This document shows, piece by piece, positions 14,322 through 35,700 of a stretch of 64,000 nt of DNA. The notes beneath the pieces were generated by a model that was given only the letters and a program-made list of their open reading frames with translations, was not told the origin of the DNA and searched no databases. The position numbers and the translations under genes are program-made. Where the stretch lies: NCBI GenBank assembly GCA_001804315.1, contig MHFT01000024.1, positions 13,610 to 77,609 of the forward strand, written 5' to 3'. Position 1 is the first letter of the stretch. Every line of letters begins with the position of its first letter. This DNA is from Omnitrophica bacterium RIFCSPLOWO2_12_FULL_50_11 (lineage in GTDB: Bacteria; Omnitrophota; Omnitrophia; Omnitrophales; Danuiimicrobiaceae).

Positions 14322-14563
14322 CGTTCTTCGTTCCGCATCTGAGACACCGTTTGAGACAGCCCGGCACCTCTGACTTTAATCTTGGAAATTGGCCGCTTCC
14401 AGCCTGGGTGGGCTAGGTTCTCATTATGGGGAATCAAATCTGCAACTGGCGTACGCCGTTCCAGGATCACGATCCTCTCGCCCCGTTTGACCGCCTTAAT
14501 ATAACTGGAAAAACCGCGGGTCAACTGTCTAATCGTCACTTGAGTCATGTTCAAATCCTCCAA
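14318..14563 (-). CDS. Phd/YefM-family antitoxin paired with the PIN toxin
   Basis: MTQVTIRQLTRGFSSYIKAVKRGERIVILERRTPVADLIP is a typical Phd/YefM N-terminus, with tight translational coupling to vapC. Confidence 0.65.
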   Translation of the reverse strand: MEDLNMTQVTIRQLTRGFSSYIKAVKRGERIVILERRTPVADLIPHNENLAHPGWKRPISKIKVRGAGLSQTVSQMRNEER

Positions 14564-14729
14564 TGAGGATCATACATAATGTCATACATTTTGTCAAACA
14601 TAGCTCATTCTATGCACCCTGCCAGAGTCATGTCCTGCGGAATGAAGGCGCCGTTCTGAAACATCGGGAAACTCCCAAGCCTATGGATTTAAATAGCTTA
14701 TGTCTTTTAAATTGTGCACACTCGACCTG

Positions 14730-14758
14730 TTGAAAATGAACTTTTTTTAATGTATAAT
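14730..14758 (+). promoter_or_regulatory. Near-consensus sigma-70 promoter TTGAAA-17-TATAAT driving the giant ORF
   Basis: TTGAAA at 14730-14735, a 17-nt spacer, TATAAT at 14753-14758, and GGGAGG at 14784-14789 eight nt before the GTG start at 14798. Confidence 0.5.
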
Positions 14759-14797: not shown

Positions 14798-17700
14798 GTG
14801 GAAGCCAGCTTAAAAGGCCAGGTTTTACCACATAACGCTCGGTGCTTTAGAAAGTCATTTTGGAGAGCGACGGCTTGCGTCGTCTTATTTTCTTTCGCGA
14901 CTACAACTGTCGCTTGGTCCGATCCTGGCTTTGGTTCACTCGACCCCTCTTCCTCTTATTCATCTTTTGCACAACACTCCCTCATTAACCCATTGAGAAA
15001 TATTGATCTCCCAGAGCGTCTTGGGAAGATCGACGAACTGTTCCTCCCAGAGAGAGTCTCTCCCGATTCTCCGTTCGTCGTCTACCTCCAAGACGCTCAC
15101 TCTAACCTCGGGGCTCAGCGCCGCATTGCGGAGGTGGCGCGCGAGCTGAGCGACAAGCTCCAAATCGAGGCCATCCTTGTTGAAGGCGGCACAGGCGAAG
15201 CCGATCTTGCGGATCTAAGATCGTTTCCGGATCAAGAAGTTAAAGAGCGCGCAACCGAATTTTGGCTCAAAGAGGCGATGCTCAGTGGAATTGAACGGGA
15301 AGCGATTGTCGGTCCAAAAGTCTACCGCTTCTTTGGCGTGGAGGACGAAGCACTTTACGAAGCAGGGGGGCGTAATTTTATTGAGGCACAAACCCGCTCG
15401 CAGCCCTTTTTGACTTCGCTCAAACCGCTGGTTCAAGAAAACGGCGAAAATAGGAGGCAATACCTTAACAAGAAGCTCTACGAGTTCGAAGAACGGGTCT
15501 CTCAGTTTGAGGAAAAGAACGAACTGATTGCCCTTGTCAGTTTTCTTGCGAGTAAAGCGCGTAACCTTCACATCAACCGCTGGAAATATCTCGAAATCGA
15601 AAAGTTAATCGACCTCATTCTGCTTGAAATGGAGGGGGGAAATAGTGAGCGCTTTTTCGAAATTCAAGAAATGCTCGATTCAAGAAAACTTTTCCGCGAG
15701 TTGGATTCCTTGAAGTCGGAAGTTAAGGAACGGTTGTTTCAAACGGACGCCGAGCGCGCCATTGACGAAGAGCACCAAGCGCTAAAAGCGTTGCAAGCGA
15801 TCGTATCACTTAAAGCAACCCCCGACGATTTTGATTATTTCCGCAAGCGCCGCGAATTGATCAAGAAGTATGCGCAGAGGGCAAAATTAGATTCCGAAGC
15901 GCTTGCGTCTGCCGAGGCCTTTTACCGATCTGCGCAGGAACGCGATCGGAAAATATTCGAAAATATCCAGGCGATTCTCGGCGAAAACGGAATCAAACGC
16001 GCGATTTTAGTGACCGGTGGCTTCCACGCTCCCGGAATCACAACCGAATTCCGTAAGCACAAAATTCCATACGTTCTGATCTCGCCCAAATTTTCTGACG
16101 AGGACAATTACTCGAACTATCTCGCACGCGTTTCCGGCAAACGTGCGAGTCTCGACGAATTCAAATCGAAGCATTCTAACCGTCATCTGGAAGGAAGCCT
16201 TAACGGAGTCGTCATCCTGAGGCAACGATCCAAAGAGGTGCCGAAGGATCCCGGTCGGGATTCGTCTTCCAAGGAGCCTGCCCTGAGGACGGGATCCTTC
16301 GGGCCTTCGGCCCTCAGGATGACGTCCGAAAGAGGGCTTCCCAATGACGGCGCATCTCATTCCCACGCCGCGGCGCACGCTGTTTTCAACCGCGCCGAAC
16401 TCCGCGTCATTCGTGAGTCATTTGAGTGGTTAAGAGAGGGTGTAAGTTCGGCCGAGAGTGCCACTTCTCCTCAGACAGGTTTACGACGCGCCGAAACGCG
16501 AACAGAAAAACCAAAACTTCGATTTACTTTGCGAAGTTTAATCTTTTGGGTGATTTGCTATGCCTTAATGTTAGCGTTTATCAAAGCGGTTTTTGGCGAG
16601 GTAGAGTGGGGAGAAGCGCTAGGAGTAATGTTAGGTGTAGGTGTATTGGCTAGGCTTTTTCACTTAGAGTATGTGGATCTATTCGACCTGACTGAAGGGG
16701 CTGGCATTGAAAAGTCAATTGACCGCAGATTCGGATTGAAAAGGGAATCACGCGATCTCGATCCGAAAAAGGACGGAGCGGAAAGCGGTCGTGACCCAGA
16801 GGAACCACCGTCCGAAAACGCGGATCCGGACCGCCGCGCAGAGATGCGTAGAGAAATTCAGGTGGAGGCTACAACGGCGGAAGATGGACGGAAAAGCGGC
16901 GACATCGCAGGCGCGGTCGATTCTCTTCCACCTTCCACCCTCCAGCTTCCAGTTTCTTATCGCCAAGCGGAAGTGCGGGCAGAAAGGAACGCCGAAGACG
17001 GAAACAAGGAGCGGAATCAGATTCCGATTTTGGATTCGAGACAGGCCACTCGTTTGGAAAGACCGGGAAGAGCGACGCGAACGGCACTTTCAACTCCCGA
17101 TAGACGGTTTTCGACAAAGAAGAGGCGATCTTCTACCGCAGAGAGACGTTCTTCTACTGCTGAGAAACGGTTGGGAAGGGGCCCAACGCCCTCCACAACA
17201 GCACGAAACTGGCCTCGAAGATCTTCGATCAATGTCCCTACTTCTGTGACGGTATATGAATCAGCCCTTTTTTTTGGCTTGGTAGGATTACCTTTGCTCA
17301 TTTCAAATCTCCTTGAGGATCATTTTGTGGGAACGGAAGGAATGGAAAGCACTGTATCAAGGCTGCCACAAGATGTCAAGGCGCCTTTTCAAAAATCGCA
17401 CCGCGCTGAAATCCGAAGTCGATCCGGCAGGGAGGACGGTTCGGAAATCAAAGCGACAAGCTCAGAGGAAGGACAAAACATCCGATCCGTCCGTTCGGAT
17501 AAAATGCAATGGCTTACAGTTAGCATTTTGCTTCCAGCCGTCACATTGGGCTTAGGGATCGGGGCAACTTTTCTGACCAAACGTTTCGAATCGCTTCCCG
17601 TTTCGATTTTATTCGTGAGGGGGATGCAATATATTTTGGGCACATTCGCAGACATAGGAATGAGTGCTGCTGCGAATTATGTTGGTCAGTGGCGTAAATT

Positions 17701-20700
17701 TAGGAGTAAGGCCAGCTGGGCGAGGGCAGTCCGTTTTGGCTTAATTATCCAAGTCGGTTTCTCGATCTGGTTTTTCGTCAAGCCGCGGCTTAGGATTCGA
17801 CTGGACCACTACGGGTCTGTCATGATGGTTGCTGCCGATACGGTGATTAGTTTGTTTACCCATCGTTTGTTGCTTCATTTGCTATATAGATCCGAGAGGT
17901 TATCTAAAGACGAGATTCGCGAAAAGATGAAAAACACATTTTGGCCTTCTTATGGGATGTTGGCGGGCGTGTGGGGCATTTTCAATTTAGGCATTTATGC
18001 TATTCCAAAAGATTGGGCCTTCGTTATTCCTATTATTTCATCGGTCGTGGCTTTTGTGAACAAAGTTATTTTGTCAGCTTATCTATATCGATCATCTTCC
18101 CGGACACTGATGATGAAGTTTGGGGGGACTTTCGGCTTGGTAGCTCCGATCATAAGCTTTGTTGCGATGGGTTCAGTCATCGGGCTTGACTTTTCATTTC
18201 GGCACGTGATTTTTGGGGGATTGAGTGGATGGTTAGTCGGAAGTGCGTTCGTTTACTTTGCAAAAAAATACTGGGGCTCAATCCAAACTGAAGGTGACGC
18301 GCTTCAAACGGGACCGGCATCTACAGGCAATGTCAATGATTTCCGGCCTGAGGTGCGGGGCAATGAGAAATTGAGTCGCACGCGGTGGGTCCGGCCATCT
18401 TGGATTGATTCGACCAGCTTGTTTTCACCGGCGGAAAGAAAACTCATTCGGGAACGCGGTCAATTGCTCAAGTTCGTGTACCCGCGCTTGAGCGAGAATG
18501 CGAAAAAAGTATTACTTTACCCTTCCTTCTTGCCCGTCTTTATGGGCGTCAAGCCGGCGTACCTGCGTATTACAGACCTTATTACTGGCCGCAAAGAACC
18601 GGATCCTATGATCCTTGCGAGAGAATTGAAAGATATTCCCAAGGCTTGGGATCAACTTGGGATAACGTTCAACGACATCAGAGCGATGTTAGTATTCGAT
18701 GTTTTTGATCAACTCAAGGCGCACATGAAACTTTTAAAAGACTTTGGTGTCCTGCCGCGCTATCCAAACGTCGACCTGATGAGCGAAGAGTGGAAAAGCT
18801 ATCAACCGAGCAAGTGGCAGGCGTTATCGGAAGAATTGGAATTGTTCATTGACGACTTAGACGACAATGTTGAGGTTAGTCAGAGTGCTGGGCATGTTCT
18901 TAACGGCATTGTCTTAGGTTATCCGGTGGCGGAAGTTCAGGCTCTAGGCGAATACATAACGGGCTTTTCGGTGAGTGTAACGCGGCTGTCGACAGAGTTT
19001 GAAGGCATTGAGCTCTTCGTTCGACTAGGAGAAAAGGGAGAAATTGCAGACGAAACGCATCGCTATCTCGCGCGGATGACCGATGCGCTTTATTATGCCT
19101 ATTCACTCCTACAGGAAAATGAGGACTTCGCGAGCATAGCTCAGGAACTCAACCTTCCCCCTAGAGTTCTTTCAGCCGAAGCTCCTGAGTCGATTGTCAG
19201 CCGTGGCGAACTTAGGCAAAGCGATTTTTTCAGGTCTGAGGTGCGGGGAAAAGAAAACGCTCAAGATTTACAATTGTATATTCGGCGTGCTCGCCATCCA
19301 GAGGTTCAAAGCGGAGAAACGAGTGATCAGGCGCCGGATTCTGCCGCCGTCAGCCTGTTGCCAATACCGCGAATTTCTTCTTTGAGCTCAGACCGCGTTT
19401 CTCCAAGTTCAGTCCGAGTATCACGGAGGTCCTTGGAGAGTTTTGACACGGCGTCTTCAAGGCGAGATGCTTTACCGTTGAGGACGTTGATTCGGAGTTC
19501 GATCGTATCTAGCCTTCGGCTGTTGCCGTGGACAGTTACCTCGAGCCGTTCCATCCTCGTATCGAGACCTGACTGGCCCTCAGCGAGGGTATCAAATTTC
19601 TTGTCCAATGCTTCCAGAAGTGTGCCCACTTCCGTGACTGAATATGAATCAGCCATTTTCTTTGGCTTGGTAGGATTACCTTTGCTCATTTCAAATCTCC
19701 TTGAGGATCAATTTGTGGGAACGGCAGGAATGGAAAGCAAGGTATCAGAGCGGCCACAAGATGTCAAGGTGCCTTTTGATGCCGGGCGCAAGACCGGAAT
19801 TGCGAACCCCAAAATCTTCTCCTCTCCCCTGTCGGGGGAGAGGATTTCCGCCAAAGGACGCGGCGGATCCGCCGCGCTGTATGGCGGAAAGGTGAGGGGG
19901 ACGAGTGAAAATAACTTGAACATCCACCCTCACCCAACCCTCTCCCTCCAATGGAGAGAGAGGGGAAAAGACTACAGCTACGGTCTTGTGACTTTTGATG
20001 CCGCCCGGCGTGCGGAGACCCGCGATCGAGTGCGGAATCCGGAGTTCAGGGTGCGGAGTGGACTTAAGTTCGGGAGTTCGCCCGTTCCGCACTCCGCACT
20101 CCGCATTTCCAACTCAAATCGGCGGGCCGAAGCGCGGGCAGAGAGCGATGGAGATCAACTTGTCAAACGATTCACAAGGTTAAGGGGGATGAATCTTTTG
20201 AGAGCTTTACCTGAATTAAACGGCGCGGTTCGACGGAAAGATTTGCCGGCTCGCACTTTGGAGAAGCTGAAAGAACAGCGCCGGATTAGGTATGTTCCTT
20301 ATGTACGCGGAGCGCTCAAAAGGCTCGCACGGAATTTAAGGAGCGAATTTCCAAAGGGGCGTGAGCTCATGAAAGCAGTTGCGGATGCATCAGGTGATCC
20401 TGAACTCTATGACCGTTCGGATGCCCTTCCGTTGCGAATTCTCCAGCAAATCGATCAACGAAAAGCGTGGGAGAGGGTGGCCTCTAACGACAACGTCGCA
20501 GAGCTTCTCCTCCGCGCGAAAGAAGCATTTGATCGGTATATGAGCACTGATGACGCATGGCTTTCAGAACATCTGCCTGAACTCAAGGATAAAAGGGCCG
20601 CCTACTTTTCGGCTGAATTTGCGGTTCCGCCGCTCCCGATATACACCGGCGGAATGGGGGTGCTGGCGGCTGATATCGTGGCGAGCGCGAGTGATCTGAG

Positions 20701-23700
20701 GATTCCGCTCACAGCGGTTGGACTTTTTTATCAGCTTGGCTACTTTCGGCAGCTCATCAGACCGTCTGGCGAGCAAGAGGAAGATAGAAGTTATGCCGGT
20801 ATCCGGAGAGATAAACGGACAGGACGGCCGCTTGATTTGCCGGTCGAAGATCCAAGAACAGGACATCCACTCATCCTGCAAATGAGAATGCCGACTGGAG
20901 GCCGTGTCGTCAAGGCAAAAGTCTGGAAGGCGCGGTTAGGAAAGGTCGATTTATTGCTTCTCGATACCAACTTGAAGGAGGAATGGGCAAACTGGAACAA
21001 CGCGTGGAATGAAGGTACAGACCTCTCTATCACAGAACAAGCTTATCGGGAACATTCGGGAACGCAGGAGCGCATGGAACAATATTTCGTGCTCGGCGTC
21101 GGCGGAATAAAGGCGCTAAAAGCATTAGGTCAAGAACCAGATGTCATCCATCTCAATGACGGCCATCCAGTATTTGCGGCCATTTCTGCTCTTGCCCAAG
21201 CGTTGGCGCGTGTGCCTCGCGCGATAGAAGATCCCAAGCTCCGGTTTGACGCAGCGCTTGAAGTAGTTCGAGCAAAGACGATCTTTACGACCCACACGCC
21301 GGTTCCTGCCGGAAATGAAGCGGTGCCGGAACATGTGATCCGCCCCTTCTTGGAGATACTTTTTCCTGGGGGAAAAGAAGTCGATCAATATGCGGTGGAT
21401 CGAATCCTCGAAATGGGACGGGCAGACGGCAACTTTAACATCACCAAATTTTCATTGCTGGTTTCAGGATTTCACAATGCCGTGAGCAAACTTCACGGCG
21501 AGGTAGCACGCAAGATGTGGCAAGGTCTTTACCCTGCTGTCCCGACAGAAGATGTTCCCATCAAAGCGATTGTCAATTCAGTTCACACGGGCGACGGCGA
21601 GCGGGAAGGAAAGTGGCAAGCTCCCCAAATTGCGGAACTGCTTCAAGAAACCTACCAGACTGCTGAAGTCCAGCGAGTAATGCACCTCGAACGAGACGAG
21701 ATGATGCGGTATCTTACGGATAACAAATGGCTGGACCAAAACGTTCCTGTTTCAACGCGAGAAAAGTTGTGGGCCGTCCATGTCGGTGTTACGAAGCTGC
21801 TCTTTAATGAGGCCGAGAAGCGGTTTACAAGGCAGGCCGCGCGGGGCGACGCGTCGCGGGAAGATTTGGCTTATCTGAAAAGTCTTGACCCACAGGCGCT
21901 CACGCTTGGTTATGCGAGGCGGTTTGCTGGGTATAAAAGGCCTGATCTCATTTTTCTAGATTTGGAGCGCTTAAGATCTATCGCCGCGAAGTCACAAGGG
22001 CTAGTACAAATCATATTTGCAGGAAAAGCTCATCCCAGAGATGACGTGGGCAAACGGTTAGTTGCTCGTGTAAATCAAATAGCGCGTGAGTTACGCAAGG
22101 AAAAGAAAATCAAAGTCATTTTCATCGAGGACTATGACGTAGCGCTGGCTCGATTGCTCGTTGCCGGAGTGCACGTTTGGCTTAACAATCCGATCCTGAA
22201 ACAAGAGGCGTCTGGAACAAGCGGACAGAAAGCACTTCTAAATGGGGTGCTGAATCTCACGATCCCCGATGGGTGGGCAGAGGGCATTGTAGACGGCGTC
22301 AACAGTTGGAAGTTTGGCGGAACGGACGTCGGGGACATCGATGCCAAGGATGCAGCTGCGCTTTACGACAAGTTGGAGAAGGAAGTGATTCCCACTTTTG
22401 ATAACAATCGGGAGGAATGGATCCGCATGATGATCCGGGGCATTCTTTCTATCGCGCATCATCACGGAGGCGAGCGGCTGCTTTTAGACTACGGCCGGGA
22501 ACTGTATGTGCCTGCTGTCAATTCAAGCGCGATGATCACGTCAGGCAACAATATTCTGACAAAGTTGCTTGCATACCGCGCGAAATCTAGCGTGGAAGAA
22601 GGAATGCTTTTTTATCTCCGGCTTCCACCCGAAGCCGAGGCAGAAAGGGTGTATTGGGCAAATAGAATTACGAACTGGGACTCTCAAGAAGATTTCGCGC
22701 TTGAGAAAATATCAGACGGCGTGTGGGCCATCGTGATTCCCGCAGAGAAAGTAGCTGGCGGTGATGTGGACTTTAAATTTATGGTATTTCCGGATCGAAA
22801 AGTCCACGGCGCGAGTAGGCCCATTTGGCTGCGGGGCGGATATCCTAACAGTTTGCGCAGCGGCATTTATCAGAATGGAAGCGTCAAAGTTGACATGGAC
22901 CACCCTTTGTTTCGTCGGGACGCAGCTCGAAAGCTGCTTGCTGCCATTCGCTCCGAAGCGCGGGATGATTGGACTGAGAGACTCGAAAACGTCATGAAGG
23001 AAATGTCCTACGTGCCGAAGTGGTTGAATGATCCAAAGTATTCGACACGTCCCGCTGTATCTCCCAAAGAGATCATTCTTCAGAGCGAAAAATTCGCCCG
23101 TTTCGCCGAAAGCCTCGCACCGGTTTTGACGCAAAAGCGTAGAGAAAAGTACGTCATGCGGCACGGGGTGAATGCATTGTCGCCTCTGAGATCTTTTGAT
23201 TTTCCTCCTCCCCTCCGGGAAGATTCCTACGGCGGCGCCGAAATCATCCTCAAAGAGGGATTTGACTGGAGCCGATTGACAGCCGGCGGGGTCATGGCCA
23301 ACATCGGGCCGTGGGAAGGCACCAAGATAACGGAAGCTGCCATCCTGGAATTTGATTTTGAAGGGGATGTCTTCACGAGCCTCGGCGCCGGCACTGACGT
23401 TAAGGATCAGCTGAGAAAATTTTTCGACACGAGCCTAGACGAAATCCATCTGCCCGAAGAACCACCTTTCTATCGGGGGCGGGGCGATCTTTTTAATTAT
23501 CTCCTCATCCTTTTATTACGTTTGTACGGAATCGACGGCGTGAATTTCGCTTATCCGGCCAAGGAATCCAACGAACCCAGATCTTTCGAATTTCTCGTGA
23601 CCCACCCCAAAGCCATCAGCCACATCCGGCTTGTTACCAGAAAACCCGGGCCAACGATTTCCAAGGAAAGAGAATCCGGCCCCCCCTCCGAAGTGCGTAC

Positions 23701-26700
23701 GGAGATTGTGCCGGAAGAGCTTGTCAAGGTTCGCTCACAGCTTGAGTATGAGCGAAGTGGCACTGGAGAAGTGTTGAATGTAAAGCCGGGAGGAATTCCT
23801 TCAGAATCGCGGAAACGAGGCCGGGAGTTTGCTTTTGACCTACGGCTGAATGCGGAGTCTCAAAACAGGAAAGCGGTCCAAAGAATCGCAGGCTTTCAGA
23901 AGAGGTTAGAAAAAATTGTCACTGCCGCCGAGCTTTTTATTCTTCCGAAAGATGCCTTCCACATTGCGTTAGGTGGCTTCTATCCTGGCGAAAGCTGGGA
24001 TTTGGATTCAAATGGGCCGATAGATTTACCAGAGGATGCGGTTGAGAACGCCCTAACCCTCTTCCAGCAAAAGCTCAATACCGCCTTCAAAGATTCGCCT
24101 GAACTCATCATTGCCATCATCGGCGCAAGGATGACAAATAATGGAACCGTGGTTCTTGATTTGAAAGAACATCATGGTGGAAAACTTGCCGGACTCCGTG
24201 GGCTGGCCTATTCCGCAATGGAGGAAGCGAACTGGCCGCCAGGAAAGTTTCGAATCAACCGCTCGAAGGATGGACAGGTAAGCGACAGCGGAATTGTGAC
24301 CTTGGCCCGGGTCATTCCTCACCCCGACAAAGATGAACCCTTGTCAAGCTCAGAGACGCTAATGCGAGTAGAAGGCAAAATTACCAAAATGGATCGTGAG
24401 CTGAAAAACAGTCCAATCACTCTCCGGTTCACTCAAGAAGATCAAGAAATAGCTCGGCTTGGAACGCGTGTTTTAATCGAAGAGATTGAGGGTTGGGCAT
24501 CCACAAATGATTTTTTGAAAGAGCGTGCGGATGAAATCGTCAAGCTTACTGCGAATGGTTTTGCCCACGAGACCTACGAAGCGGTCCGCCAAATAGAAGC
24601 AATGGATTGGGGAAGAAGAAAAGGGATTTATTCTCCTCAACAAGTTCAAAAAGATCTTCAAGGCGAACCTCCAGGAAGTCTATTGATGCTAAAGAGGCAA
24701 AGGCACAATCAAATACTTGCCACGCACGGAGAAAGGGTTGCACTTCTTGAGCTCGAATTGCGTCATTTGAGCGTCTTGACACTTTCACTCGCGTTAAAAG
24801 GAATCCCCATGGATGTGGCAAGGAGCAGCCATTATTACTATCTTTTACTTGAGATTGAGCGGTTCAAAAATTCCAACGGTATCGAGGGCCTTAACCCTGA
24901 GTTCATTTCTCCGGCGCAACAGATACTTGTCTTGAACGAGATAGCGAAATCTCAACTTCGTGGTGCACGGGAGCAACTTGGCAGACAAATCGCAGAGCAC
25001 TTAGACACCATTAGTTTTCGCTCGTCTGCCGAACGACTGTTACCCGAAATAGAAAAAATCATCGCGAGCTGGGAGGAACGTTATGTGAGAACAAAGCTTG
25101 AGCATGCTGTGTTGCAGGTAATTGGTCCCCTGAGACTAACTCGGGCGGCAGGAAAAAAGGTAAAAGATGAGATATCCCGTAGAAAAGTCGAGATCGTCGC
25201 ACACGTGGTGCGACAACTCACCCCAGACGTATTAAGTGGCCGTCGCATAACGACAAATAAGATTCGCGACGCCCTTAGAAGTAGCGGTCTCAGTTTTGAC
25301 CGTGTGAACCGGCTCAATCGTCCGGTGCGGTCCGGTATCACGAAGAAAGTCGACGAAATAGTGTTCAACATTGAAGAAAGCACGCACCGCTTGAAATTTC
25401 GTTCTGCGTTCCAAAACCCCCGCTCGGAAGCAAGGTGGCTCATAATGGCTGCGAAGATCGTTCTTATGGTCGCGGTTTTCGGTGCTCTGGGCTATTGGGC
25501 GCTCCGCGACACCAAAGATGATTGGGCCAAGGAGTTTAGTCAAATGACGGAACTTATTAAGGAGACCACCTCGACAGATGTTTTAATTGACATCGTGCGA
25601 GATACTCAAAATAACAGCATCCACCGCTGGTATGCGGTAAGACGATTAGTCGAAGCAGCCACAGTTAATGAATCTCTGAGAAAGGAAGTGGTGCCGGTGC
25701 TCATGGAAGAAATTACCCGCTATCTCAAAAAGGAGCTGGATCCACAGACGATGGTTGCGTCATGGGGGGTCGAGGTTGAGGCGATAGACGGTCTTGCCAA
25801 GTTCAAGGCGACGCGAGCAATCAACTTATTGAGACAAGTTTACACGGACGGCTCGGTCGATCAAACGGTGCGTGAAGCGGCGAGGGGAGCGGTAGAACAA
25901 TTGGAAGAGACACGATCCGGCCGCTCCAGAGTACAAGAAGGTCAATTGGACAGAGAAGAAAAATTGAAAACGTCTGGCCCGAGGAGCTCAAGATCCGAAA
26001 TTCGTAGTGAAATCGTCACTCCAAAGACGAAACTTGAAGAGAGGGGTACCCTTATTTTCCGCCGTATTCGGTATGAAATAGAGCAGATCATCCACGTGGC
26101 TGGAGATGATTTCATCCTGTTAAGAGCGAAAAAGAAGTACGCAGGGCAAAAGAGACAAAGGAGGGTTGACCGTCCCATTCATATTTCCAGAAGTAAGAGC
26201 GAGGTTACGAGCGGCCCTCTTTTACGAGTTTCCCTCAATGATGGAAACTGGAGTTACATTTCACCCAAGCGTGCTGAGGTGCGATCGCCGCAACAGAAGA
26301 AAAAAATAAAATACCCTGCCATTCATATACCCCTTGGAACGTATTTAAGGGTTTATTCTGGAATTTTTCTTCCGGCGATCTTTTTCATACTTAATGTATT
26401 AACCGTCGTAAAACTCGGGGCCCAGCTGGCAGGGGCGAAGATTTTGAATGGCCTCCCATTGGACGCTGTGATCACCGCATACGGGATTATTTTAGTCCCA
26501 GCCATCATCCATTTCGCAATGGAAAAATCTGTTTGGCTTCGGAAACGACAGCGTGCGCGAGAAGATCGGAGAAAAGCCGCTGGTATGCGCGGTGAGTCAC
26601 GCTCCCAGTCTGTTGAAGGCCGTGAACGTGCGAATGGAGATATTGGAGAACCAAAACAATCTGCAGTTCGAGACTCGGCGGACCGTGCGGAACTGCGAGC

Positions 26701-29700
26701 AGAATGGAAAGGTAAGAGTATTTTCGAAATTGGATTCGAAGCCAGTCTAATTCCTCGGGAGTTTAATTTGTTAGTGGATGCCGCGGTTAAGGGATTTAGC
26801 AATCTCAACGAGGCCGAACGAAATCAAGTGAAAAAGGTTCTTCGGAAGATTTTCGAAAAATTGGGCTTGCTCGAAACGGAAAAGCAAGAGGAGCGGCGCC
26901 GATTCCTGAGTCAAATCAGCGCGCTCATGATAAAGCTCAAAGCGCGGGGAAAGTTAGACAAATTAAAGTCAACGTTTCAAAAGAAATACTTGGACGAGAC
27001 ATCGTTCAAATTGGAGCGTGAGGTCAAAGTGTCAGGGCTTCAAACCGGTGATCAGGTACAGGAAGCAGCGGCGGAAATATCCGATGAAGAGCCTCTGGGC
27101 GCTTTGAGAAAATTGCTTGCTAAAAAACCCCGTGGGATTGAGGAAGCATATGCCTTGTCTATTTCACGAGGCGCATCTTTAGAAGAGGTTCGGAGGACAC
27201 TCAAAGAAGCTGGCTATGAGATGACGCAATGGAGACGCGACGGGTTGCTCGGCCTCTTTCGATTTAAACGAAATGTGTGGTTGAAAGTGCAAGAGCCCCG
27301 CCGGGCCGAGGTGCGGCACGAGCTGGTGCAGAGTGTGGAATTCGGAGTGCGAAGCAGACGCGAACGAGACGACTCGATCATTCCGTATTCCGCACTCTCC
27401 ATTCCGCACTCGGAAACACGGGCTGAGATGCGGGGACAATTGGAAGAAGATTGGAAAATAGCACGTTCTGCTGTGTGGTTTTTTTTGAGGAGAGGGGTTT
27501 ATTTTAAGCAGGACATCGAAGATGCTTTTCAGGATATCCATCTTGCGTTTGCGGAGGAGAGGCAGAAGGGAAAACCCTTATCAGAACTGGAGCTGAGAAA
27601 GATTGCTCTGGCCGCCCTTTCAAAACATGTGAGGGATTATCATAAGTACAAGCGTGTGGTTAGAGGGTTTCAAGCTGCATATAGATCGCTCGTCACAAAG
27701 CGCCGCGGCCCACGTCCTATGCTTGATGATGTCGATCTCTTGATACCTGAGGTAGGGGAAGAGACATTTGGGGACAGGCTTAGATCTCATTTCAGAAGGC
27801 GAGGGTGGTCCCAGCGACGAGGAGCGCGTGAATTAGGATTTTCGTACGGCTCCATTAAACCGTGGATATCAGGTAAGATTCCAAGCCCATTCTTTGTGAA
27901 ACGGCTTGCGACCGCACTGGACACGACGGTAAGTGAGTTGATGATAGGAATACCTAGGGAAGAGTTGCTCGCCATCAGGATTGAAGATGAAGAAAGTGGC
28001 GAATACAGAAAAATCTTGGGGTTGAAGGTCAAAGTTTTGAGATATGAAAAAGGATGGACAAAAAGCAGGCTTGCTCGCGAGGTGGGTATCAAGGATAACA
28101 CCATTATCAGACTGGAGGCAGGCGAACCTACGTTTCCCTATCGGTACATTGGAAAACTTGCCGAAACGCTGGGTACGACGATAGGCGATCTTATTGCAGG
28201 AATGCCTGACGAAAAAATAATGGCTATTCGTGTTTTTGACGAGAAAAGCGAGGAGCATCGTGAACTCTTTGGGCTCAAATTAAGAGTCCTCAGATATAGG
28301 CGAAGATTATCTCAGACCGGTTTCCAGGGCCAGAGTAGCACCTCCGCATGGGAAAGTGGGAAATGGTTCCCCTATCCCAGAAGCATGAAAATCATTGCGC
28401 GCAACTTAAAAACAACTGTGAGCGAACTTTTAGCCGGCATACCTGAAGAGAAGTTAATGAGCATGCGGGTCCGAGACGAGAAAAGCCGGGAAGCAAAACA
28501 AATTCTTGGATTAAAGATCAAAATTTTTAGATACAAACGGGGTTGGACCTTAACCGAACTTGCTCAAGAAATGCACGTGCATGTTGATACGGCTTCAGAT
28601 TGGGAAGCCGGACTGCACTTCCCTGCGATACGGCATTTCAAACAGCTAGCAGAACGACTGAATTCTACGGTGAGCCATCTTCTGGTGGGTTTGCCCGCAG
28701 AGGAGATAAAAACAAGATTAAAAAATGGCAATGACCCGGACTATGCCGACCTATTCAATCTCATGATCCGGGTTGTAAGATACGAGAACGGTTGGTCATC
28801 GGGCAAGCTCGGCGCTGAAGTTGGGATTCCTCGGGTAACCATCGATGGATGGTCATGGAGTCGAGCAGTTCCCGCCCCTAACAATTGGAAAAAATTGACT
28901 ACTGGAAAAGGGCACGTTCTTTTCGGTGACTACCTTCCTCCGTCACGGCCGAAACCCACAGAGCTTGATGAGACAGAACGTAAAGTTCATGAACTGTATC
29001 AACAACTAGGTCGATACAGTTCTGTCGCCAGAGCAATGGGATGGCAAGGAGCAGCAGGCGGCGTGAGGGCCCGGCACATATACCTGCGGTCTCTTCGGAA
29101 ATTGGGGGCTCAGAGCCGCGCTGAGGTGCGGAACGAACTGGTGCGGAATGCGGAATTCGGAGTGCGGAGTGGACGTCAACTCGAAGACTTGATCATTCCG
29201 CATTCCGCCCTCCCCATTCTGTACTCGGAACCACGGCCTGAACTGCGGATGGGGCTGGAAGAGATCGCGATCTATGAGGAAGACGTGGATCTCGAAGCGT
29301 ATCAGCGCGTGATGCGTTCTGCCGAGGTCCGTTTCTTAACGCGTGAGGAGGAAAAGATCCTTTTTCGTGCCCTTCATGCTCGAAATCTAAAAGGAGAAGA
29401 GCGCAGGACTCTCTTTGACTTTCTAGTCTTGAAATATCTTCCTAGGATTAAACGCGTGATCCGTAAACTCGTACGCGGTGAGGGGCGAGACAAGGACAAT
29501 ATGTATCAGGACGGTTCTTTGGGGTTAATGGAAGCAGTCTGTCGTTTTGATTACCGTCTCGGGACGAGGTTTGGTACATTTGCCGACTGGTGGATATGGG
29601 GCAAAATTCTAATCGGTTTGAATGACTTAGCCACTGGAAAGTTACCGTCTCAGGAGCGGGAACTCGTCCCCGCAATCTTGAGCTCTCAACAGGAATTAAC

Positions 29701-32700
29701 ACAGCTTTTCAAGCGTGAACCCACCATGGAGGAATTGGCCAAAGCGCTAGGGGAAGAGGAAAAAACGGTGATCCGCATCCTTTCCTTCTTCTCACGGGCA
29801 AAGTCCTTAGATGCCCCAGCAGGGAACGGTGAATTAAACCGCTATCAATTCCGCTCGGATCCAAAAGCGGAAACTCCGGAGGCGATCGCGGTTCGTGAGG
29901 AAGAACACCGCGAGATAGTCCCAGAGATTTCAAGAAGGCTAGCCCTTCTTTCCTCTTACCAGCAGCTCGTCATCAAACTGCGGTTTGGAATTGGCACGCA
30001 AAAAGAGGGCGGTTATACACTCGACGAGATTGGAACAATGCTGGGGGTCACAAGAGAGAACATCCGTCAGATCGAAGATCGTGCAATCAAAAATATGCGC
30101 AGCAACACTATTTCAGACGCCAAGACTCGTCCCGTATCCACTGAACATGGTGATGTTTACCTTGTGGAAGTCGTCGGCATAAAGCCGGATCATCCTGTTT
30201 TTGAGGACATGCGGCTCAAGCCACTTATCGAGATAAAAGAGCTTTACGAAAGGGGCTTTTTTGCCAATTTCATTCCGGCACAAAACTTGACGATGGGCAG
30301 GGTCAGAAATGTTAAGCCTCGTGTCGGCTACCGGAGACGCGTAGCGGCAACGGCCCGAGCAGCCGCTCACCGTGCTGAGGCGCGCAGTGGAAGCGTGAGG
30401 GAGTATGCGACGTGGGATCACTTCCATAGCTTGATTCATGTCCTCGCGATAGATAGCGAGGAAAAGAATCGGCTGGAAGCGTATAAGCGATTGAGAGAGC
30501 TAGCATTGTTTCAACCGTTCCACTTTGGCCTTGCTTTGGTGCGGCATGTCGGAGGTGAAATAGCTTCTTATGCTAAATCCATTTTGCTGGAGGTTGCGTG
30601 GGAAAACCCAGAGATCATGACTGGACCCATTGTGAGCTCACTTGAAGATCCGAGTCGGAATCCGCATGCTGAAGAACTTCTCGGCCAGTGGATTGACCTC
30701 ATCATCAAAAAGAAAGATCGAAACAAACTCAGTATTGTTGCCCGGCCTCTGATCGGCATCTTAGCTCTTGAGATAGCCCGCCCTGCTGCCGAAAGATTGA
30801 TTCAAAAAATTGCTCTTTTTGATCTCGGTGTAATTGTGAATCGATTCATGGGGGCACTCAAAGATCCCGCGAGGCGGGCGATCGTCGGGCACCTCCTTGT
30901 AGTCATTAGCCGTTATTCTGCTGGCGCAGCAAAGTTCGTCACCGAAACTGTCATTGAAAATCTTTATGACAATGAAATCGCCGAATACCTTATAGAAGTA
31001 CTTCTTGAGATTTCCAAGGATGCGGGCGAAAAGACGGTAAAACATATTTTGTGGTTATTAATGGATGTTTTGCATTTTGAGGATTACCTGAAGCGGGTTC
31101 GTTTTGTTCCGTTCAAGGAACGGCTAAGAGAAAATAAGGGAGATTTCCGTCGAAACGCAGCCGCGGTTTTATCGAGAATGCTGGTGACATATCCGGTCGA
31201 AACAGTGCACATTGTAGTCGGCCATGCTTTGAATCATGACGTCCGGCAGTACGCCGACGAAATCCTCGCTGAAATCGAGGATAAACAACCCCAGATTCTT
31301 ACTGATTCCTATGTGGCAGCTCAGGGCCGAATGAGTCCAAATGAATTTGTGGAAAGCGAGTTGATTCGTCTCGCTGCATCACATCGAGGGCCTATCCTCA
31401 ACTCGCTCATCAAATCGCTTAAGAGACAATCAAAAGCTCCGGCCTTAGTTTCGCTTCTGATAAAGATGGCGCGGTCTAACTCTGAGCTTTCAGGTTTCAT
31501 TCAAGAGCGCCTCAAGTCTGCGATGTCTGAGGTGCCGACGCATCGGAACCTCGATCGCTTCGGTCAACAAATTCTTGCCCAAATCCAGTCCCGCAATGAA
31601 GTGCGATTGGGATTAAATTTGGCCAAGGAGAGAAAAGTACTGCTCTCGGGAAATGCCAGCCGTGCGGAGGTTATTCAAAATGATGAAAACGGGCACAGCC
31701 CGATATTGAGGAATGACGATCGGACGGCTGACGCCAGGCTTGATGTAAACAAGGTGGTCGCCAGTTTGACGCACACGCCGAAAACCGGCCAATTCGAAGA
31801 CTCGACAAAGGTTTTGATACGGAATCGGAGTGATGCGGCTCATGGAGCAGGAGACGATTTAGAAAGTGACTTCGCTATGCTCGGTAGCAATAAGAGGAGG
31901 AGAAGTCCATTCGGTTCCAGCCGGATCTCGGGCAATGAAACCTTCTTCTTGAAGAATGTCCTTGAGCGTTCCCATTCTGGAACTTTCCTCAAGGAACAGC
32001 CGAACCGCTTCCATAAGCCTGCGCCGCGCATCGTCCACCGTATCTCCGCAGCTGGCAACGGACAATTCTGGGCAGACACTGACAAACGTCGGCCCCTCTC
32101 TAAAAATCAAGGAAGTGAATTCAATCTTTCTCATGGCATTCAAACTATAACACAGAACCGGGATGCCGTAAAGCAGCCCTCTTACCGCTCTGCAGTGCGT
32201 GAAAAATTCAGGGGAGAGGCGAGAGAGGAGAGGGAAGAGAAAAAGCGCTTACCTCTTACCGCTTCTCTCTCGCCTCTCACCACTCACCTCTCCCCTGATT
32301 CTTCCCGCCCCGCGGCACGCAAACGAGTGCGAAGCGGACATGAACTCGAAGACTCGATCATTCCGCATTCCAGACTTCCCAATCCGCACTCGGAAACACC
32401 GGCTGACGCGCGGGATCTCGTAGTTGCGCATGACGAATTGCCAGTGACGAAAGGTAGAAGACCTTGGCAGTACGAACGCGCGGATCTAAGGCACCGAGCG
32501 CGCTCTAGAGGTGTGAGTGCTTTTCGCGGCGGCGGCCCTGCCAATCGAGAAAGACAATTCCGAGAATTATTACAAGCAGGATCACAGCAAGAAACACAAC
32601 ATTCGCTGTTGCTCCATCCATTTTTGTTTCCTCTCGTCAGGATTGATCCAGAGAATGAAGGCAAAAGCAACAAGATAAATTATAACCCCGGCCACCAGAA

Positions 32701-35700
32701 GAAACAAGACAGGTCCGACTTGTTGGGCGCATCCGACTTCATACAGTTGTCATCGCGAGGCCAGCATCCCAAGAATGGGCTGAAGCAATACGATGCCTCC
32801 GTCATTACGAGGAAGCGTAGGGGCAATGACGAAGTAATCTCGGATGCGAGATTACTTCGTCATCCCTTGGGGTTGCTTCCTCGCAATGACGGTCAGGATG
32901 CAATTGCTTCGTCAACGCCTGGTCCGCTGCCTCGCGATAACGTTGGCATTGCTGCATCGAGCGGGATACGCGCCGCGGTGCAGAGTGGACAGGAACTGGA
33001 AGACTTGATCATTCCGCATTCCGCACTCCCCATTCCGCACTTGGAAACACGGCCTGAGGTGCGGAGCGGGGACAAATCACGAGGGGATGCGAGCGCTCCT
33101 CCTGACCGTGTCAAACAATGGGAAGAGAATATCGGTGCCGTGAAAAGGATGTTGAGCAAGTTTTTTCAGGAAGGCAATGACCTAAATTATGCCTTGCTTT
33201 TGTTTGGAAACATCCTCGTGAACGATCCCGTTAGAATCGATTACATGGAGAAATTGATGAATGCTTTGAAGAAACAAAAGGGGCCTCGTAGAGACAAAAA
33301 CGCAAGACACGGCGTAGAGCTTACGCCTGACGATCTTAGAGATTTGCTCGATTGGGTAATCGGAGACGTCGCCTATTTAAGCTCTCCGCCTAATAGGAAG
33401 GACGACGGACCTGTTATGTGGATGTGGGTTCCATACAGAGACCTACCCGAAGAACTCATAACCGAAATTGTGAAATATCGAACGCCTAAAAAGAATTTTG
33501 ATGATGCGGCTGACGCATGGAGAGCATATCAGGCGCAGGGTGATAAGAAGCTAATCGGATTTAAGTCATTCTATGATAAGCACTTTAAAAAAAGAGGGGC
33601 GATGGCGTCTGGCGATCAGGCTTTTGATTCGTATTCGTTTCATTTTTTACCTACGAGAAAGCATGATGATTTGAAACTAGGGATTGACACTGACTGGGCC
33701 GGCAGAGGATTGGGCAGAGGATTGGTTGCGTTCAGGGACGTACCTCGAGGTCGAAAACTTGTTGTAAATCGGCTCCGGCAATCTGAACAGGTTTATGGAA
33801 TGTCTCAACATTTGTTTTACATTGAATTAGAGCACGTCAAAAATCGGCTTATTGTTCACACCCACCAACACGGCGGTAGTCGGACGAGTCAATTGAGGAC
33901 TTCCGATCGTGAGTTGTATGATTACTTGAAACATGTACCGGATAAAGCCTTCGCTTTGTTAATAGACCGACTGGATGAGGTACTTGCAGCTTTAGGATGG
34001 TCGGCAGCCGATCAAATCCAGGATTTTGAGATTGTCTCAGCCAGCAAGGTCGCTTATGAATGGTCCACGGTCTCGGCCTCAACGGTTATGACAGCTTATA
34101 TGGATTTTCCACAGCGCCTTGGATTTCATATGGTAGAACGTAAGCCCAATGAGATCCGGAATGCGCCAGGCGACCAAGCCATGTGGAGAGAAAGCGTGTG
34201 GTACTGGAGCCGGCCGCTTGCGGATATGAAGAAACCTCCGAAAGTTCAGATCGAGACGCCGTCTTCTTTCCGTCCGGAAGTGAGAATCCTGGAGACGCGG
34301 GCTGAGGTGCGGGAAACAAAAGTAAGAAGCACGAAGCTGGAAGCAGGAGCGCAAAAGTCTCTCGCTTCAGGCCTCGCGTTTCACGCCGGCGGCAAAGCCG
34401 CCTCCCGCTCTGAAATGCGGATAAATCCGAGGAGCACTGAGGAATTGCGCGAACAGTTGATGACTCTTGTAAGGGAGATCGTCATTCTGCTTGATCTTCT
34501 CACGGTAGATCCCCGTCGGGAGAACCGGAAGGAACTTGAAACCGAGATTACGGAGCTGAGAAGGCAGCTCAGTGAACAAAAAGAGTTTGTGAACGAAGAT
34601 CAACATCAAATCTTTGACAAGCTTGTGGGAGAAGTTAAATCGCTCATTGATTTAGTATCGGCTTCCAAGCTGCCTCTTTCTACTCAATTGATACGAGAAC
34701 ATACTCAGCGTATTTACAGTAACATCCAAGAGCTGGAATTTAAGCCTACGGGGGAACAAAAAGATGCAATAAGTGCGGAAACAGAACGCTTCGAGCTCGC
34801 GAAGTTGATTAGAGCTAAGGATGTCGAGGGTATTGCTGACATGCTTTCGAGAAGCGACGAGGTGCCAATAAAGGTAGATGCGATCAGGGCACTGGGTCTA
34901 TTGAAGGCCAGTCAATATGCAGATTTGATCGTTCCATACTTAACCTTTTTCACACCACCCTTCGGCGAGGGTGTGCGGCTGACTGCAATTACTGCATTAA
35001 GAAATTTAAATGCAAAACAATATCTAACTGAGATTGCGAAGAAATTCACAGATCCCACACTAAGCGTTCGCAGTAGGGCAGCCGGAGTGATTGGGGCATT
35101 CGGGGATCCAACATACATCCCCCAACTGAAGGAACTATTGAATGACAAATCCGCCGCGGTGCGGCTTGCAGCGGCAAAAGCTTTGCAGAAATTCGGAGTG
35201 GACATTCCTGAAGAATACCGCTCCGAAGCGCGGAGCAATGATGATGTCTTTATGAGGATCGCAGCTTCTTTGCCAGAGGAGTGGCGGGAAAAAATTCAAG
35301 CAGTGCAGACAAAACCAGCTAACAGGGATGTTTTCCCCTCGTGGATACAAGCGCTGAATGAAGCGGAAGCGACGCGCCTACACTCCATTCTAACGGATCG
35401 CGTGCCAGTAGATGTAATTGAGTCCTTTTTCCTGAACAGCCCGCACTTTCTTGCAAGCGATCCCGATCAGCGTCATCAAGTGGCAGTTTCGATTGCAGAG
35501 ACGCTAGAGGATGTACGTCGGCTTTTAAGATCTTGGATTGAAGAGCTGGATCGCGACCCGCATGCGCGACGTCCTGCAGCGATCCCTGCGCGCCAGATGA
35601 CCACCCCTGCTGAGACAAGAGGTGTCCGGCCGCAAGAAGAACGAGAAGAGTGGGTATCAGAGGAGGAAGCTGCCAGACGCGCGCGCTTCATTGAGTGGGC

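What the first reader, a model, noticed from the sequence alone, without database searches (positions are those of the whole stretch)
27775..28890. Array of five tandem XRE-family HTH domains immediately upstream of the sigma-70 module
There are five consecutive repeats of about 80 aa. Each has the Cro/C1 helix-turn-helix core and a conserved IRVxDEKSxE lead-in. Together with the sixth HTH near the C-terminus this gives at least 8 DNA-binding modules in the giant protein. Tandem identical-type HTH arrays are rare in single polypeptides.
Basis: partly seen in the sequence, partly recalled or inferred. Interest (0 to 1): 0.55.

Follow-up and report, generated by a model that had tools for sequence, protein, structure and literature searches.

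The report
Five-HTH cassette inside composite giant gene
Five tandem Cro/C1-type DNA-binding repeats are really there, but they form one conserved cassette of a 7,625-residue Omnitrophota reading frame that strings complete, unrelated proteins together through a recurring RxExR junction motif, so it looks more like a bacterial polyprotein than one protein with eight DNA-binding domains.

Summary
Window 27767-28969 (+) encodes five head-to-tail repeats of 72-84 aa. R1, R2 and R4 pass Pfam HTH_3/HTH_31 cut-offs. R3 has lost helix 2. R5 is a conserved, truncated terminal variant. The repeats share 27-47 % aa identity, and the first and last are positionally orthologous in other proteins, so the array is old.

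The array belongs to an undescribed family, found mainly in Omnitrophota. It has an orphan four-helix N-domain, then 2-6 XRE repeats joined by a conserved linker (LLxGMPxEELMxIRIEDExSxEYRKL). Tandem XRE arrays in general are not rare: 649 clusters were hit, and most of the top 150 carry 3-11 repeats.

The repeats lie in a 561-aa cassette (aa 4213-4773) of one 22.9-kb ORF (14798-37675). That ORF also contains a complete alpha-glucan phosphorylase, two complete sigma factors, membrane proteins and HEAT-repeat proteins. These units are separated by 27 RxE[VAMITL]R motifs, where 0.8 are expected. None of the motifs falls inside a recognised domain. Several flank a 134-nt hairpin repeat.

My best reading is a composite, probably processed polyprotein whose HTH cassette acts as a multi-site DNA-binding regulator. 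Cleavage is inferred, not shown.

The parts
14798..37675 (+). Composite giant ORF of 7,625 aa with a GTG start preceded by the Shine-Dalgarno-like sequence GGGAGGA. It holds about 20 protein-sized cassettes.
   Evidence: The same 7,625-aa gene is called in an independent MEGAHIT assembly. Coding potential is in frame 0 along almost the whole length, with 0 internal stops against 237-408 in the other frames.
14730..14758 (+). Near-consensus sigma-70-type promoter (TTGAAA-17-TATAAT) in front of the giant ORF.
   Evidence: 11 of 12 matches. Promoter-like and terminator-like sites inside the ORF are not in excess of shuffled sequence.
27300..27434 (+). Upstream junction of the HTH cassette: RAEVR (27302-27316), a 134-nt hairpin-forming repeat, then RAEMR (27419-27433).
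   Evidence: fold z = -4.4.
27434..27766 (+). N-domain of the cassette: an orphan four-helix domain with the motif IARxxVWFFLRRGVYF...EDxxQxIxLAF.
   Evidence: Conserved in P0003-P0007, P0012, P0020, P0028 and P0085. AlphaFold pLDDT is 93. No Pfam, PDB-sequence or PDB-fold match.
27767..28015 (+). HTH repeat R1 (canonical XRE).
   Evidence: HTH_31 35.3 bits and HTH_3 28.8 bits.
28016..28267 (+). HTH repeat R2 (canonical XRE).
   Evidence: HTH_3 35.1 bits and HTH_26 34.8 bits.
28268..28504 (+). HTH repeat R3 (degenerate; helix 2 deleted).
   Evidence: Pfam E = 0.09 only. Gap in the alignment. No helix 2 and a low-confidence block in the model.
28505..28753 (+). HTH repeat R4 (canonical XRE).
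   Evidence: HTH_3 32.3 bits.
28754..28969 (+). HTH repeat R5 (terminal, truncated variant).
   Evidence: No Pfam hit when scanned alone. It aligns to the other repeats and is positionally orthologous to the last repeat of P0003.
28970..29116 (+). 49-aa basic helical tail of the cassette. It is absent from the homologues.
   Evidence: No Pfam hit. pLDDT is about 50. In P0003 the junction RSELR follows R5 directly, where the window has PTELD.
29115..29249 (+). Downstream junction: RAEVR (29117-29131), second copy of the hairpin repeat, then RPELR (29234-29248).
   Evidence: fold z = -4.2.
29249..30370 (+). Adjacent cassette: a complete RpoD-like sigma-70 factor with regions r2, r3 and r4.
20138..22948 (+). 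Cassette holding a complete alpha-glucan phosphorylase. It shows that the cassettes are whole proteins.
   Evidence: TIGR02094 matched over positions 2-599 of 600, E = 2.9e-153. Relatives in other genomes are stand-alone genes of about 590-890 aa.
14798..16390 (+). First cassette (aa 1-531), ending at the first RxExR.
   Evidence: Homologues occur only in Omnitrophota, and several are stand-alone proteins of 475-525 aa. In P0011 the same module is also followed by a junction at aa 532.

Best explanation
The segment encodes the DNA-binding part of a 561-aa cassette (aa 4213-4773 of the ORF; nt 27434-29116). The cassette has three parts:
- an orphan four-helix N-domain;
- five tandem Cro/C1 (XRE) helix-turn-helix repeats, of which three are canonical, one has lost helix 2 and one is a conserved truncated terminal variant. 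The repeats are joined by a conserved, partly helical linker;
- a short basic tail.

The cassette belongs to an undescribed family, found mainly in Omnitrophota, that carries 2-6 such repeats.

Classical XRE repressors reach two half-sites by dimerising. Here one chain carries several recognition helices. Its most likely activity is therefore to bind, as a monomer, a row of neighbouring half-sites, either direct or paired, and so act as a transcription regulator. It may work together with the sigma-70 factor encoded in the next cassette.

The cassette is not a domain of a working 7,625-aa protein. The ORF is a translational concatenation of complete proteins whose boundaries are marked by RxE[VAMITL]R. 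I infer that these motifs are processing sites and that the cassette is released as a protein of about 60 kDa.

Shown: the repeats, their fold class, the family, the cassette architecture and the junction motif. Inferred: DNA binding, monomeric multi-site recognition and proteolytic release.
For: Repeats and fold:
- Pfam hits.
- AlphaFold pLDDT 82.5 and pTM 0.65.
- Foldseek matches of single repeats to SinR, P22 c2 and 434 Cro.

Family:
- 49 hits at E <= 1e-10, the best at 38-42 % identity. They share the N-domain, the repeats and the linker.
- The two of these homologues that carry a source name (P0004, P0005) are annotated as Omnitrophota.
- The first and last repeats are positionally orthologous.

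Cassette architecture:
- There are 27 RxExR motifs against 0.77 expected from 1000 shuffles, where the maximum was 4.
- They occur in only one of the six frames, and use both CGN and AGR arginine codons.
- None lies inside a recognised domain, although domains cover 30 % of the ORF (P = 8e-5).
- The same motif flanks the orthologous cassette in P0003 and P0004.
- P0011 (6,964 aa) has 35 motifs and the same first cassette ending at aa 532, but a different cassette order.
- The phosphorylase, the N-module and both sigma factors are full length. Relatives of the phosphorylase and the N-module are stand-alone genes elsewhere.
- Spacers without coding signal still have 0 stops in frame 0, against 10-30 in the other frames for the longest one.
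- The ORF has one good promoter and Shine-Dalgarno sequence at its start, and no excess of internal promoters, terminators or Shine-Dalgarno-plus-start pairs.

Link to sigma: in P0006 an ECF-like sigma lies in the same ORF just before the module.
Against: - No protease has been identified. Only faint, sub-threshold hits tie the first cassette to the Tiki/ChaN/erythromycin-esterase superfamily.
- No proteomic or transcript data were available.
- No DNA target is known.
- Two of the five repeats are degenerate.
- pTM 0.65 suggests a fairly rigid rod. That could equally serve as a scaffold rather than a DNA reader.
- Omnitrophota are known for very long proteins that may function intact.
- The sigma adjacency rests on only two cases.
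Confidence: 0.55

Rival explanations
1. The 7,625-aa product works intact. The HTH array would then be one DNA-binding region of a membrane-anchored megaprotein, for example one that tethers the chromosome or foreign DNA. RxExR would be only a favoured linker sequence.
For: - Omnitrophota encode many giant proteins, and it is unresolved whether they are cleaved.
- The ORF has an N-terminal signal or transmembrane-like segment and several transmembrane cassettes.
- No protease was found.
Against: - Complete sigma factors and a complete cytoplasmic phosphorylase are unlikely to work while embedded in one chain with membrane segments (inference).
- Cassette order is shuffled between the window ORF and P0011, while the motif stays at the boundaries.
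- Stand-alone homologues of the cassettes exist.
- Junk-like, hairpin-bearing spacers are bracketed by two motifs, as expected if the spacers are discarded.
Confidence: 0.22
2. Separate proteins are made without proteolysis. Either the long transcript is cut at the hairpin repeats, or ribosomes start again inside the ORF at each cassette.
For: - Strong hairpins (z = -3 to -4) sit at five junctions.
- Codon 4 of the motif is often GTG or ATG.
Against: - Shine-Dalgarno-plus-start pairs are not enriched at junctions: 4 of 27, against 3.5 +/- 1.7 at random positions.
- Most junctions have no hairpin.
- Upstream fragments would lack stop codons.
- The frame is kept and stops are absent across all spacers, which is needed only if ribosomes read through.
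- The hairpin copies show no compensatory changes.
Confidence: 0.1
3. The repeats are no longer DNA binders. They would be a helical scaffold for protein contacts, for example holding the neighbouring sigma factor in the manner of an anti-sigma factor or adaptor.
For: - R3 and R5 are degenerate.
- The linkers are conserved, and the relatively high pTM suggests a rigid array.
- A sigma factor lies adjacent in two cases.
Against: - Three repeats keep a canonical helix-turn-helix that scores above the Pfam cut-offs.
- Most repeats carry net positive charge.
- The recognition-helix region stays conserved across the family.
Confidence: 0.1
4. Artefact: an assembly chimera, or a decayed operon whose stop codons were lost by chance.
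For: The original scaffold has a 10-N gap inside the ORF, at window 19859-19891.
Against: - An independent assembly from another sample calls the same 7,625-aa gene.
- Frame 0 has no internal stop in 7,625 codons, against 237-408 in the other frames.
- Coding potential is present throughout.
- Related composite ORFs occur in other Omnitrophota.
Confidence: 0.03

Closest known systems
Cro/C1 (XRE) helix-turn-helix repressors: 434 Cro and repressor, P22 c2, SinR, HipB (Pfam HTH_3 / HTH_31)
   Same: The same five-helix fold and helix-turn-helix signature. Three repeats pass the Pfam cut-offs, and single repeats superpose at about 1.6 A.
   Different: The known proteins carry one domain per chain and dimerise on palindromic operators. 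Here five copies sit in one chain, joined by a conserved linker of about 25 aa and preceded by an orphan N-domain. Two of the copies are degenerate.
Giant Omnitrophota genes ('Archaeovorin' and dockerin types; bioRxiv 10.1101/2023.11.21.568195)
   Same: The same phylum, a very long single ORF, and the same open question of whether the product is cleaved.
   Different: The published giants exceed 30,000 aa. They are built from adhesion, carbohydrate-binding, SecA and C39/S8 peptidase domains and many transmembrane segments. This ORF has 7,625 aa and strings together complete cytoplasmic proteins (phosphorylase, sigma factors, HTH regulators) with a defined junction motif. None of the published giants' domains was found by Pfam.
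Viral polyproteins and engineered 'fuse-and-cleave' polyproteins (e.g. nif polyproteins, PMC6130400)
   Same: One ORF, complete proteins in series, and a short recurring motif at every boundary.
   Different: No protease has been identified, no cleavage has been shown, and the locus is chromosomal in a bacterium. The motif RxExR matches no protease specificity that I can name.
Poly-HTH proteins in metagenomes: uncharacterised proteins of 300-1000 aa made almost entirely of 4-11 XRE repeats
   Same: Tandem XRE repeats in one chain.
   Different: Most lack the N-domain and the IRIEDExSxEYRKL linker that define the window's family. None has been characterised, and the paper library holds no report of them.

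Membership tests
XRE / Cro-C1 HTH (Pfam HTH_3, HTH_31) | Sequence match above the family's gathering score | tested here: met
   R1, R2 and R4 each pass when scanned alone. R3 (E = 0.09) and R5 (no hit) do not.
XRE / Cro-C1 HTH (Pfam HTH_3, HTH_31) | Five-helix globular fold with helix 2 - turn - helix 3 | tested here: met
   AlphaFold model. Foldseek matches to SinR, P22 c2 and 434 Cro at TM 0.8-0.85 and rmsd about 1.6 A. R3 lacks helix 2.
XRE / Cro-C1 HTH (Pfam HTH_3, HTH_31) | Sequence-specific DNA binding | not testable with these tools
   No operator has been identified. This needs SELEX, DAP-seq or EMSA.
Sigma-70 family (idea: the N-domain is region 2 and the tail is region 4) | Profile or fold match of the N-domain to sigma region 2 | tested here: not met
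   No Pfam hit. hhalign against E. coli RpoE gives probability 5 %. The PDB profile search returns no sigma factor. Foldseek against the SigE N-domain gives TM 0.36.
Sigma-70 family (idea: the N-domain is region 2 and the tail is region 4) | Match of the 49-aa tail to sigma region 4 | tested here: not met
   No Pfam hit at E <= 1. The model is of low confidence there.
Published giant Omnitrophota proteins (Archaeovorin / dockerin types) | Adhesion or carbohydrate-binding repeats, C39/S8 peptidase and SecA-like domains, and length above 30,000 aa | tested here: not met
   The Pfam scan of the whole ORF lists only phosphorylase, DUF3417, HTH, sigma-70 and HEAT families above their cut-offs. The length is 7,625 aa.
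Polyprotein (processed composite ORF) | Complete, independently occurring proteins in series in one frame | tested here: met
   Full-length phosphorylase, RpoD-like and FliA models. Stand-alone homologues of the phosphorylase and the N-module.
Polyprotein (processed composite ORF) | A recurring short motif confined to the boundaries | tested here: met
   27 motifs against 0.77 expected, none inside a domain. The same motif sits at the orthologous boundaries in P0003, P0004, P0011 and P0153.
Polyprotein (processed composite ORF) | A cognate protease | tested here: inconclusive
   No peptidase family was found in the ORF. Only faint hits to Tiki-superfamily families (ChaN, erythromycin esterase) in the first cassette, E = 0.008-0.013.
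Polyprotein (processed composite ORF) | Demonstrated cleavage products | not testable with these tools
   This needs proteomics or N-terminomics.

The most novel reading that the evidence does not exclude
A clade of Omnitrophota expresses ordinary cytoplasmic and membrane proteins as chromosomal polyproteins. These include enzymes, sigma factors and multi-HTH regulators.

Cassettes are shuffled between genomes. They are delimited by lineage-specific junction motifs: RxE[VM]R here and in P0003, P0004 and P0011; SLDNGG in P0028; xSLG in P0018. A dedicated protease would cut at these motifs.

The 134-nt hairpin repeats would then be in-frame, stop-free mobile inserts that target the junction sequence and duplicate it. 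They would be tolerated because the peptide they encode is cut out.

On this reading, the five-HTH cassette is one released product.
Probability: 0.35. Interest if true: 0.85.

Novelty: new variant of a known kind. Interest (0 to 1): 0.6.

Why it matters
The HTH array on its own is a modest addition. It is an undescribed family, found mainly in Omnitrophota, in which a single chain carries several XRE domains, and it would be a natural system for studying how monomeric arrays read DNA.

The context matters more. The published work on giant Omnitrophota genes leaves open whether these products are cleaved, and it states that no cleavage points are known. This ORF and its relatives supply a concrete candidate junction motif. 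The motif sits exactly between complete proteins, so the question can be tested directly by proteomics or by expressing two-cassette constructs.

If processing is confirmed, it would be a rare case of polyprotein-style expression of housekeeping genes in bacteria.

Tried and rejected
1. N-domain as sigma region 2, and the 49-aa tail as region 4. Pfam, PDB profile search, hhalign and Foldseek were all negative. The best fold resemblance was to ATP-cone domains (TM 0.52-0.55, probability below 0.21), which is too weak to use.
2. Recent duplication. Rejected by 27-47 % aa identity among the repeats and by positional orthology.
3. Known RNA families or tRNAs in the window. None found.
4. Hairpin repeat as a conserved RNA structure. 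There were 0 compensatory pairs among the five copies.
5. Internal Shine-Dalgarno-plus-start sites at the junctions. Not enriched.
6. Internal promoters or terminators. Not enriched.
7. Word-indexed protein search with the cassette, and scans of GTDB and JGI contigs with it. They found nothing. The homologues came only from the exhaustive HMMER search.
8. Phosphorylase relatives in GTDB. All are at most 38 % identical and stand-alone, so no close genome is available.
9. C-terminal cassette. No homologues by the word-indexed search or by local jackhmmer.
10. First cassette as a protease. Only faint Tiki-superfamily hits.
12. Literature on tandem XRE arrays or on Omnitrophota polyproteins. Nothing relevant was found.
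Full report
**Observation.** The finding lies inside a single open reading frame, window 14798-37675 on the + strand. It has 7,625 codons and a GTG start. In that frame, aa 4324-4724 consist of five head-to-tail repeats:
- R1, 27767-28015
- R2, 28016-28267
- R3, 28268-28504
- R4, 28505-28753
- R5, 28754-28969

The repeats are 72-84 aa long.

I scanned each repeat alone against Pfam. R1, R2 and R4 exceed the gathering scores of HTH_3 and/or HTH_31. R3 reaches only E = 0.09, because about five residues of helix 2 and the turn are deleted. R5 gives no hit. All five align with one another.

An AlphaFold model of the whole cassette, built on a 12-sequence alignment, has mean pLDDT 82.5 and pTM 0.65. 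It shows each repeat as a five-helix unit, except that R3 lacks helix 2. Single repeats superpose on SinR, P22 c2, 434 Cro and HipB at TM 0.8-0.85 and about 1.6 A.

The 'IRVxDEKSxE lead-in' is a real motif, but it is an inter-repeat linker. It is present after R1, R2 and R3, degenerate after R4, and absent before R1.

**Age of the repeats.** Identity among the repeats is 27-47 % at the protein level. At the DNA level, mean column identity is about 60 %, and only one 70-nt stretch is shared between R2 and R3. R1 finds its best partner in the first repeat of P0003, P0004 and P0007. R5 matches the last repeat of P0003, including its odd C-terminal half: NNWKKLTTGKGHVLFGDYLPP against DNWNKMVSGEGRKILGKFLPS. 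The array therefore predates the divergence of these organisms and is not a recent duplication.

**A conserved family.** The word-indexed protein search and the contig scans found nothing. An exhaustive HMMER search of 1.84 billion cluster representatives gave 649 hits at E <= 1e-3 and 7 at E <= 1e-30.

The best hits (P0003-P0008, P0012, P0020, P0028, P0085; 38-42 % identity for the top five, P0003-P0007) share the whole architecture:
- an N-domain of about 90 aa (IARxxIWFFLRKGVYF...EDVYQEIYLAF);
- 2-6 XRE repeats;
- a conserved linker between repeats (LLxGMPEEELMNIRIEDExSPEYRKLFGLKIKVLRY).

P0004 and P0005 are deposited as 'helix-turn-helix domain-containing protein, partial' from Candidatus Omnitrophota.

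The N-domain models confidently as four helices with two beta bridges (pLDDT 93). It has no Pfam, PDB-sequence or PDB-fold match. My initial idea that it is a sigma region 2 was not supported: hhalign gave probability 5 %, and Foldseek against the SigE N-domain gave TM 0.36.

Beyond this family, most of the 150 listed hits are proteins with 3-11 XRE repeats. Tandem XRE arrays are therefore uncommon in characterised proteins but not rare in sequence space.

**The surrounding ORF.** The window comes from an Omnitrophota genome in the Rifle aquifer metagenomes:
- A neighbouring protein is OGX06352.1, 'Omnitrophica bacterium'.
- The original scaffold carries a 10-N gap at 19859-19891.
- An independent assembly from another sample calls the identical 7,625-aa gene.

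The ORF contains a full-length alpha-glucan phosphorylase (TIGR02094 positions 2-599 of 600), a complete RpoD-like sigma factor, a complete FliA/WhiG sigma factor, HEAT repeats and further XRE domains. Relatives of the phosphorylase in other genomes are stand-alone genes of about 590-890 aa. Homologues of the first 531 residues occur only in Omnitrophota, and several are stand-alone proteins of 475-525 aa.

**The junction motif.** These units are separated by the peptide motif R-[ASPGN]-E-[VAMITL]-[RH].
- It occurs 27 times, against 0.77 expected from 1000 shuffles, where the maximum was 4.
- It occurs in this frame only. Its arginines use both CGN and AGR codons, so the constraint acts on the protein.
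- None of the 27 copies falls inside a recognised domain, although domains cover 30 % of the length (P = 8e-5).
- The motif brackets the HTH cassette in the window (RAEMR ... RAEVR), in P0003 (RSEVR ... RSELR) and in P0004 (RSELR ... SSEMR).
- P0011, a 6,964-aa protein, has 35 copies. It begins with the same first cassette, which again ends at residue 532, but it carries the shared cassettes in a different order.
- Other large relatives show other recurring boundary motifs: SLDNGG eight times in P0028 and xSLG in P0018.

**Spacers and hairpins.** Five junctions carry a 134-nt repeat with long inverted arms built of 7-nt units. These lie at 20009-20138, 27300-27434, 29115-29249, about 32290-32414 and 32931-33065. 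Four of the five copies lie between two copies of the motif. The exception is the copy at about 32290-32414, where no motif was found on either side.
- Four of the five copies fold much better than shuffled sequence (z = -3.3 to -4.4); the copy at 32931-33065 is weaker (z = -2.1).
- Matches to the repeat's core sequence were found nowhere else in the 64-kb window.
- The five copies show no compensatory changes.

Three stretches lack codon-usage signal: 17048-17400, 19298-19600 and 31900-32950. They still contain no stop in frame 0, whereas the other frames of the longest one hold 10-30 stops. Read-through of these spacers is therefore under selection.

The ORF start has a near-consensus promoter and a Shine-Dalgarno sequence. 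Internal promoters, terminators and Shine-Dalgarno-plus-start pairs are not enriched.

**Interpretation.** The facts above fit a composite ORF that is translated as a whole and whose units are independent proteins. The simplest mechanism is processing at the junction motif. Spacers and hairpin inserts would be tolerated because they lie between two sites and are discarded. This is inference: no protease was found, and only faint Tiki-superfamily hits appear in the first cassette.

Within that picture, the finding is the DNA-binding part of one 561-aa cassette. Single-domain XRE proteins need to dimerise to read two half-sites. A chain with three or four intact recognition helices held by conserved linkers most plausibly reads a row of neighbouring half-sites as a monomer.

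The cassette lies next to a sigma-70 cassette here. In P0006 it follows an ECF-like sigma in the same ORF. That hints at a functional link, but it rests on only two cases.

**Comparison with the known.**
- The repeats are members of the XRE HTH family. Sequence and fold criteria are met for three or four of the five; DNA binding is untested.
- The cassette family has not been described: the library of papers holds no report on it, and the N-domain has no Pfam model.
- The ORF is not one of the published giant Omnitrophota gene types. Those are far longer and are built from adhesion, peptidase and SecA-like domains. Their authors note that cleavage is suspected but that cleavage points are unknown.
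- The closest functional analogy is a viral or engineered polyprotein. Two of its four defining features are met here, one is inconclusive and one is untestable with these tools.

**Verdict.** The array itself is a new variant of a known kind. The context, a candidate bacterial polyprotein with a defined junction motif, raises the interest to moderate-high and can be tested directly.

Noticed in passing
window 14798-37675, with junction motifs at aa 532, 564, 680, 869, 1183 ... 7419: RxE[VAMITL]R occurs 27 times in the ORF frame, against 0.8 expected. It always lies between recognisable domains. It is also abundant in the related giant protein P0011 (35 copies).
   Followed up: yes
window 20009-20138, 27300-27434, 29115-29249, ~32290-32414, 32931-33065: A 134-nt repeat with long inverted arms made of 7-nt units (GTGCGGA / TCCGCAC). 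It is in frame and stop-free. Four of the five copies are bracketed by two junction motifs (not the copy at ~32290-32414), which looks like a target-site duplication of a small mobile element. It is found only inside the giant ORF in this window.
   Followed up: partly
window 17223-17389 and 19611-19777: A 167-nt direct repeat (89 % identity) inside the ORF. It encodes SVPTSVTxYESAxFFGLVGLPLLISNLLEDxFVGTxGMES, and both copies lie in low-coding spacer regions.
   Followed up: no
window 19800-19960: A cluster of small hairpins (CCTCTCCCC...GGGGAGAGG, and TTTCCGCC...GGCGGAAA). Part of it is the 10-N scaffold gap of the original Rifle assembly. It reads like intergenic repeat DNA, yet the frame stays open.
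   Followed up: partly
window 32203-32303 and 32826-32863: A polypurine/polypyrimidine hairpin (41-nt arms, 78 % complementary) and a perfect 17-bp hairpin. Both lie in the longest non-coding-like spacer of the ORF.
   Followed up: no
window 752-3859 (+): A 1,035-aa ORF that is a paralogue of the giant ORF's first cassette, sharing the motifs IHIQxxHANYxAQ and ITGGFH. It has one RAEAR at aa 624 and ends in ...YRAEVQIQAAA, so it may be a small two-cassette version of the same design.
   Followed up: partly
C-termini: window 37500-37672 and 3700-3856; also P0003, P0006, P0008, P0010, P0011, P0018, P0038, P0100, P0132: All 11 complete composite ORFs that I examined end in a helix followed by [A/S]A or ASV (VAAA, QAAA, AQAA, RTAA, AHAA, KSA, RSA, ESA, QSA, SAA, ASV). 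This is reminiscent of ssrA-like C-terminal degrons or of a sorting signal. Their last cassettes are not detectably homologous by sequence.
   Followed up: partly
window 14798-16390: The first cassette has a signal or transmembrane-like N-terminus and faint, sub-threshold Pfam hits to erythromycin esterase and ChaN (Tiki superfamily, which includes proteases). This makes it a candidate processing enzyme, but only as a lead.
   Followed up: partly
window 36410-37057: After the FliA cassette core come one firm and one weak XRE HTH, then a motif (KKWPSHVRALQIGEHKDAALLYAARKFGIELP) that occurs three times in P0011.
   Followed up: no
window 13908-14548 (-) and 14569-14602: A PIN-domain toxin gene and a 76-aa upstream gene lie divergent from the giant ORF. 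Their near-consensus promoter overlaps a 12-nt tandem repeat (TCATACATAATG, 2.8 copies), which is probably the operator of the toxin-antitoxin pair.
   Followed up: no
P0028, P0018, P0038, P0019 (relatives): Other large ORFs that carry the same HTH cassette use different recurring boundary motifs: SLDNGG x8; GVLKRDTLEAQSLG / xSLG; F[AS]TG[YF][GD]S; PGWGKR / EPDW. This suggests lineage-specific junctions.
   Followed up: partly
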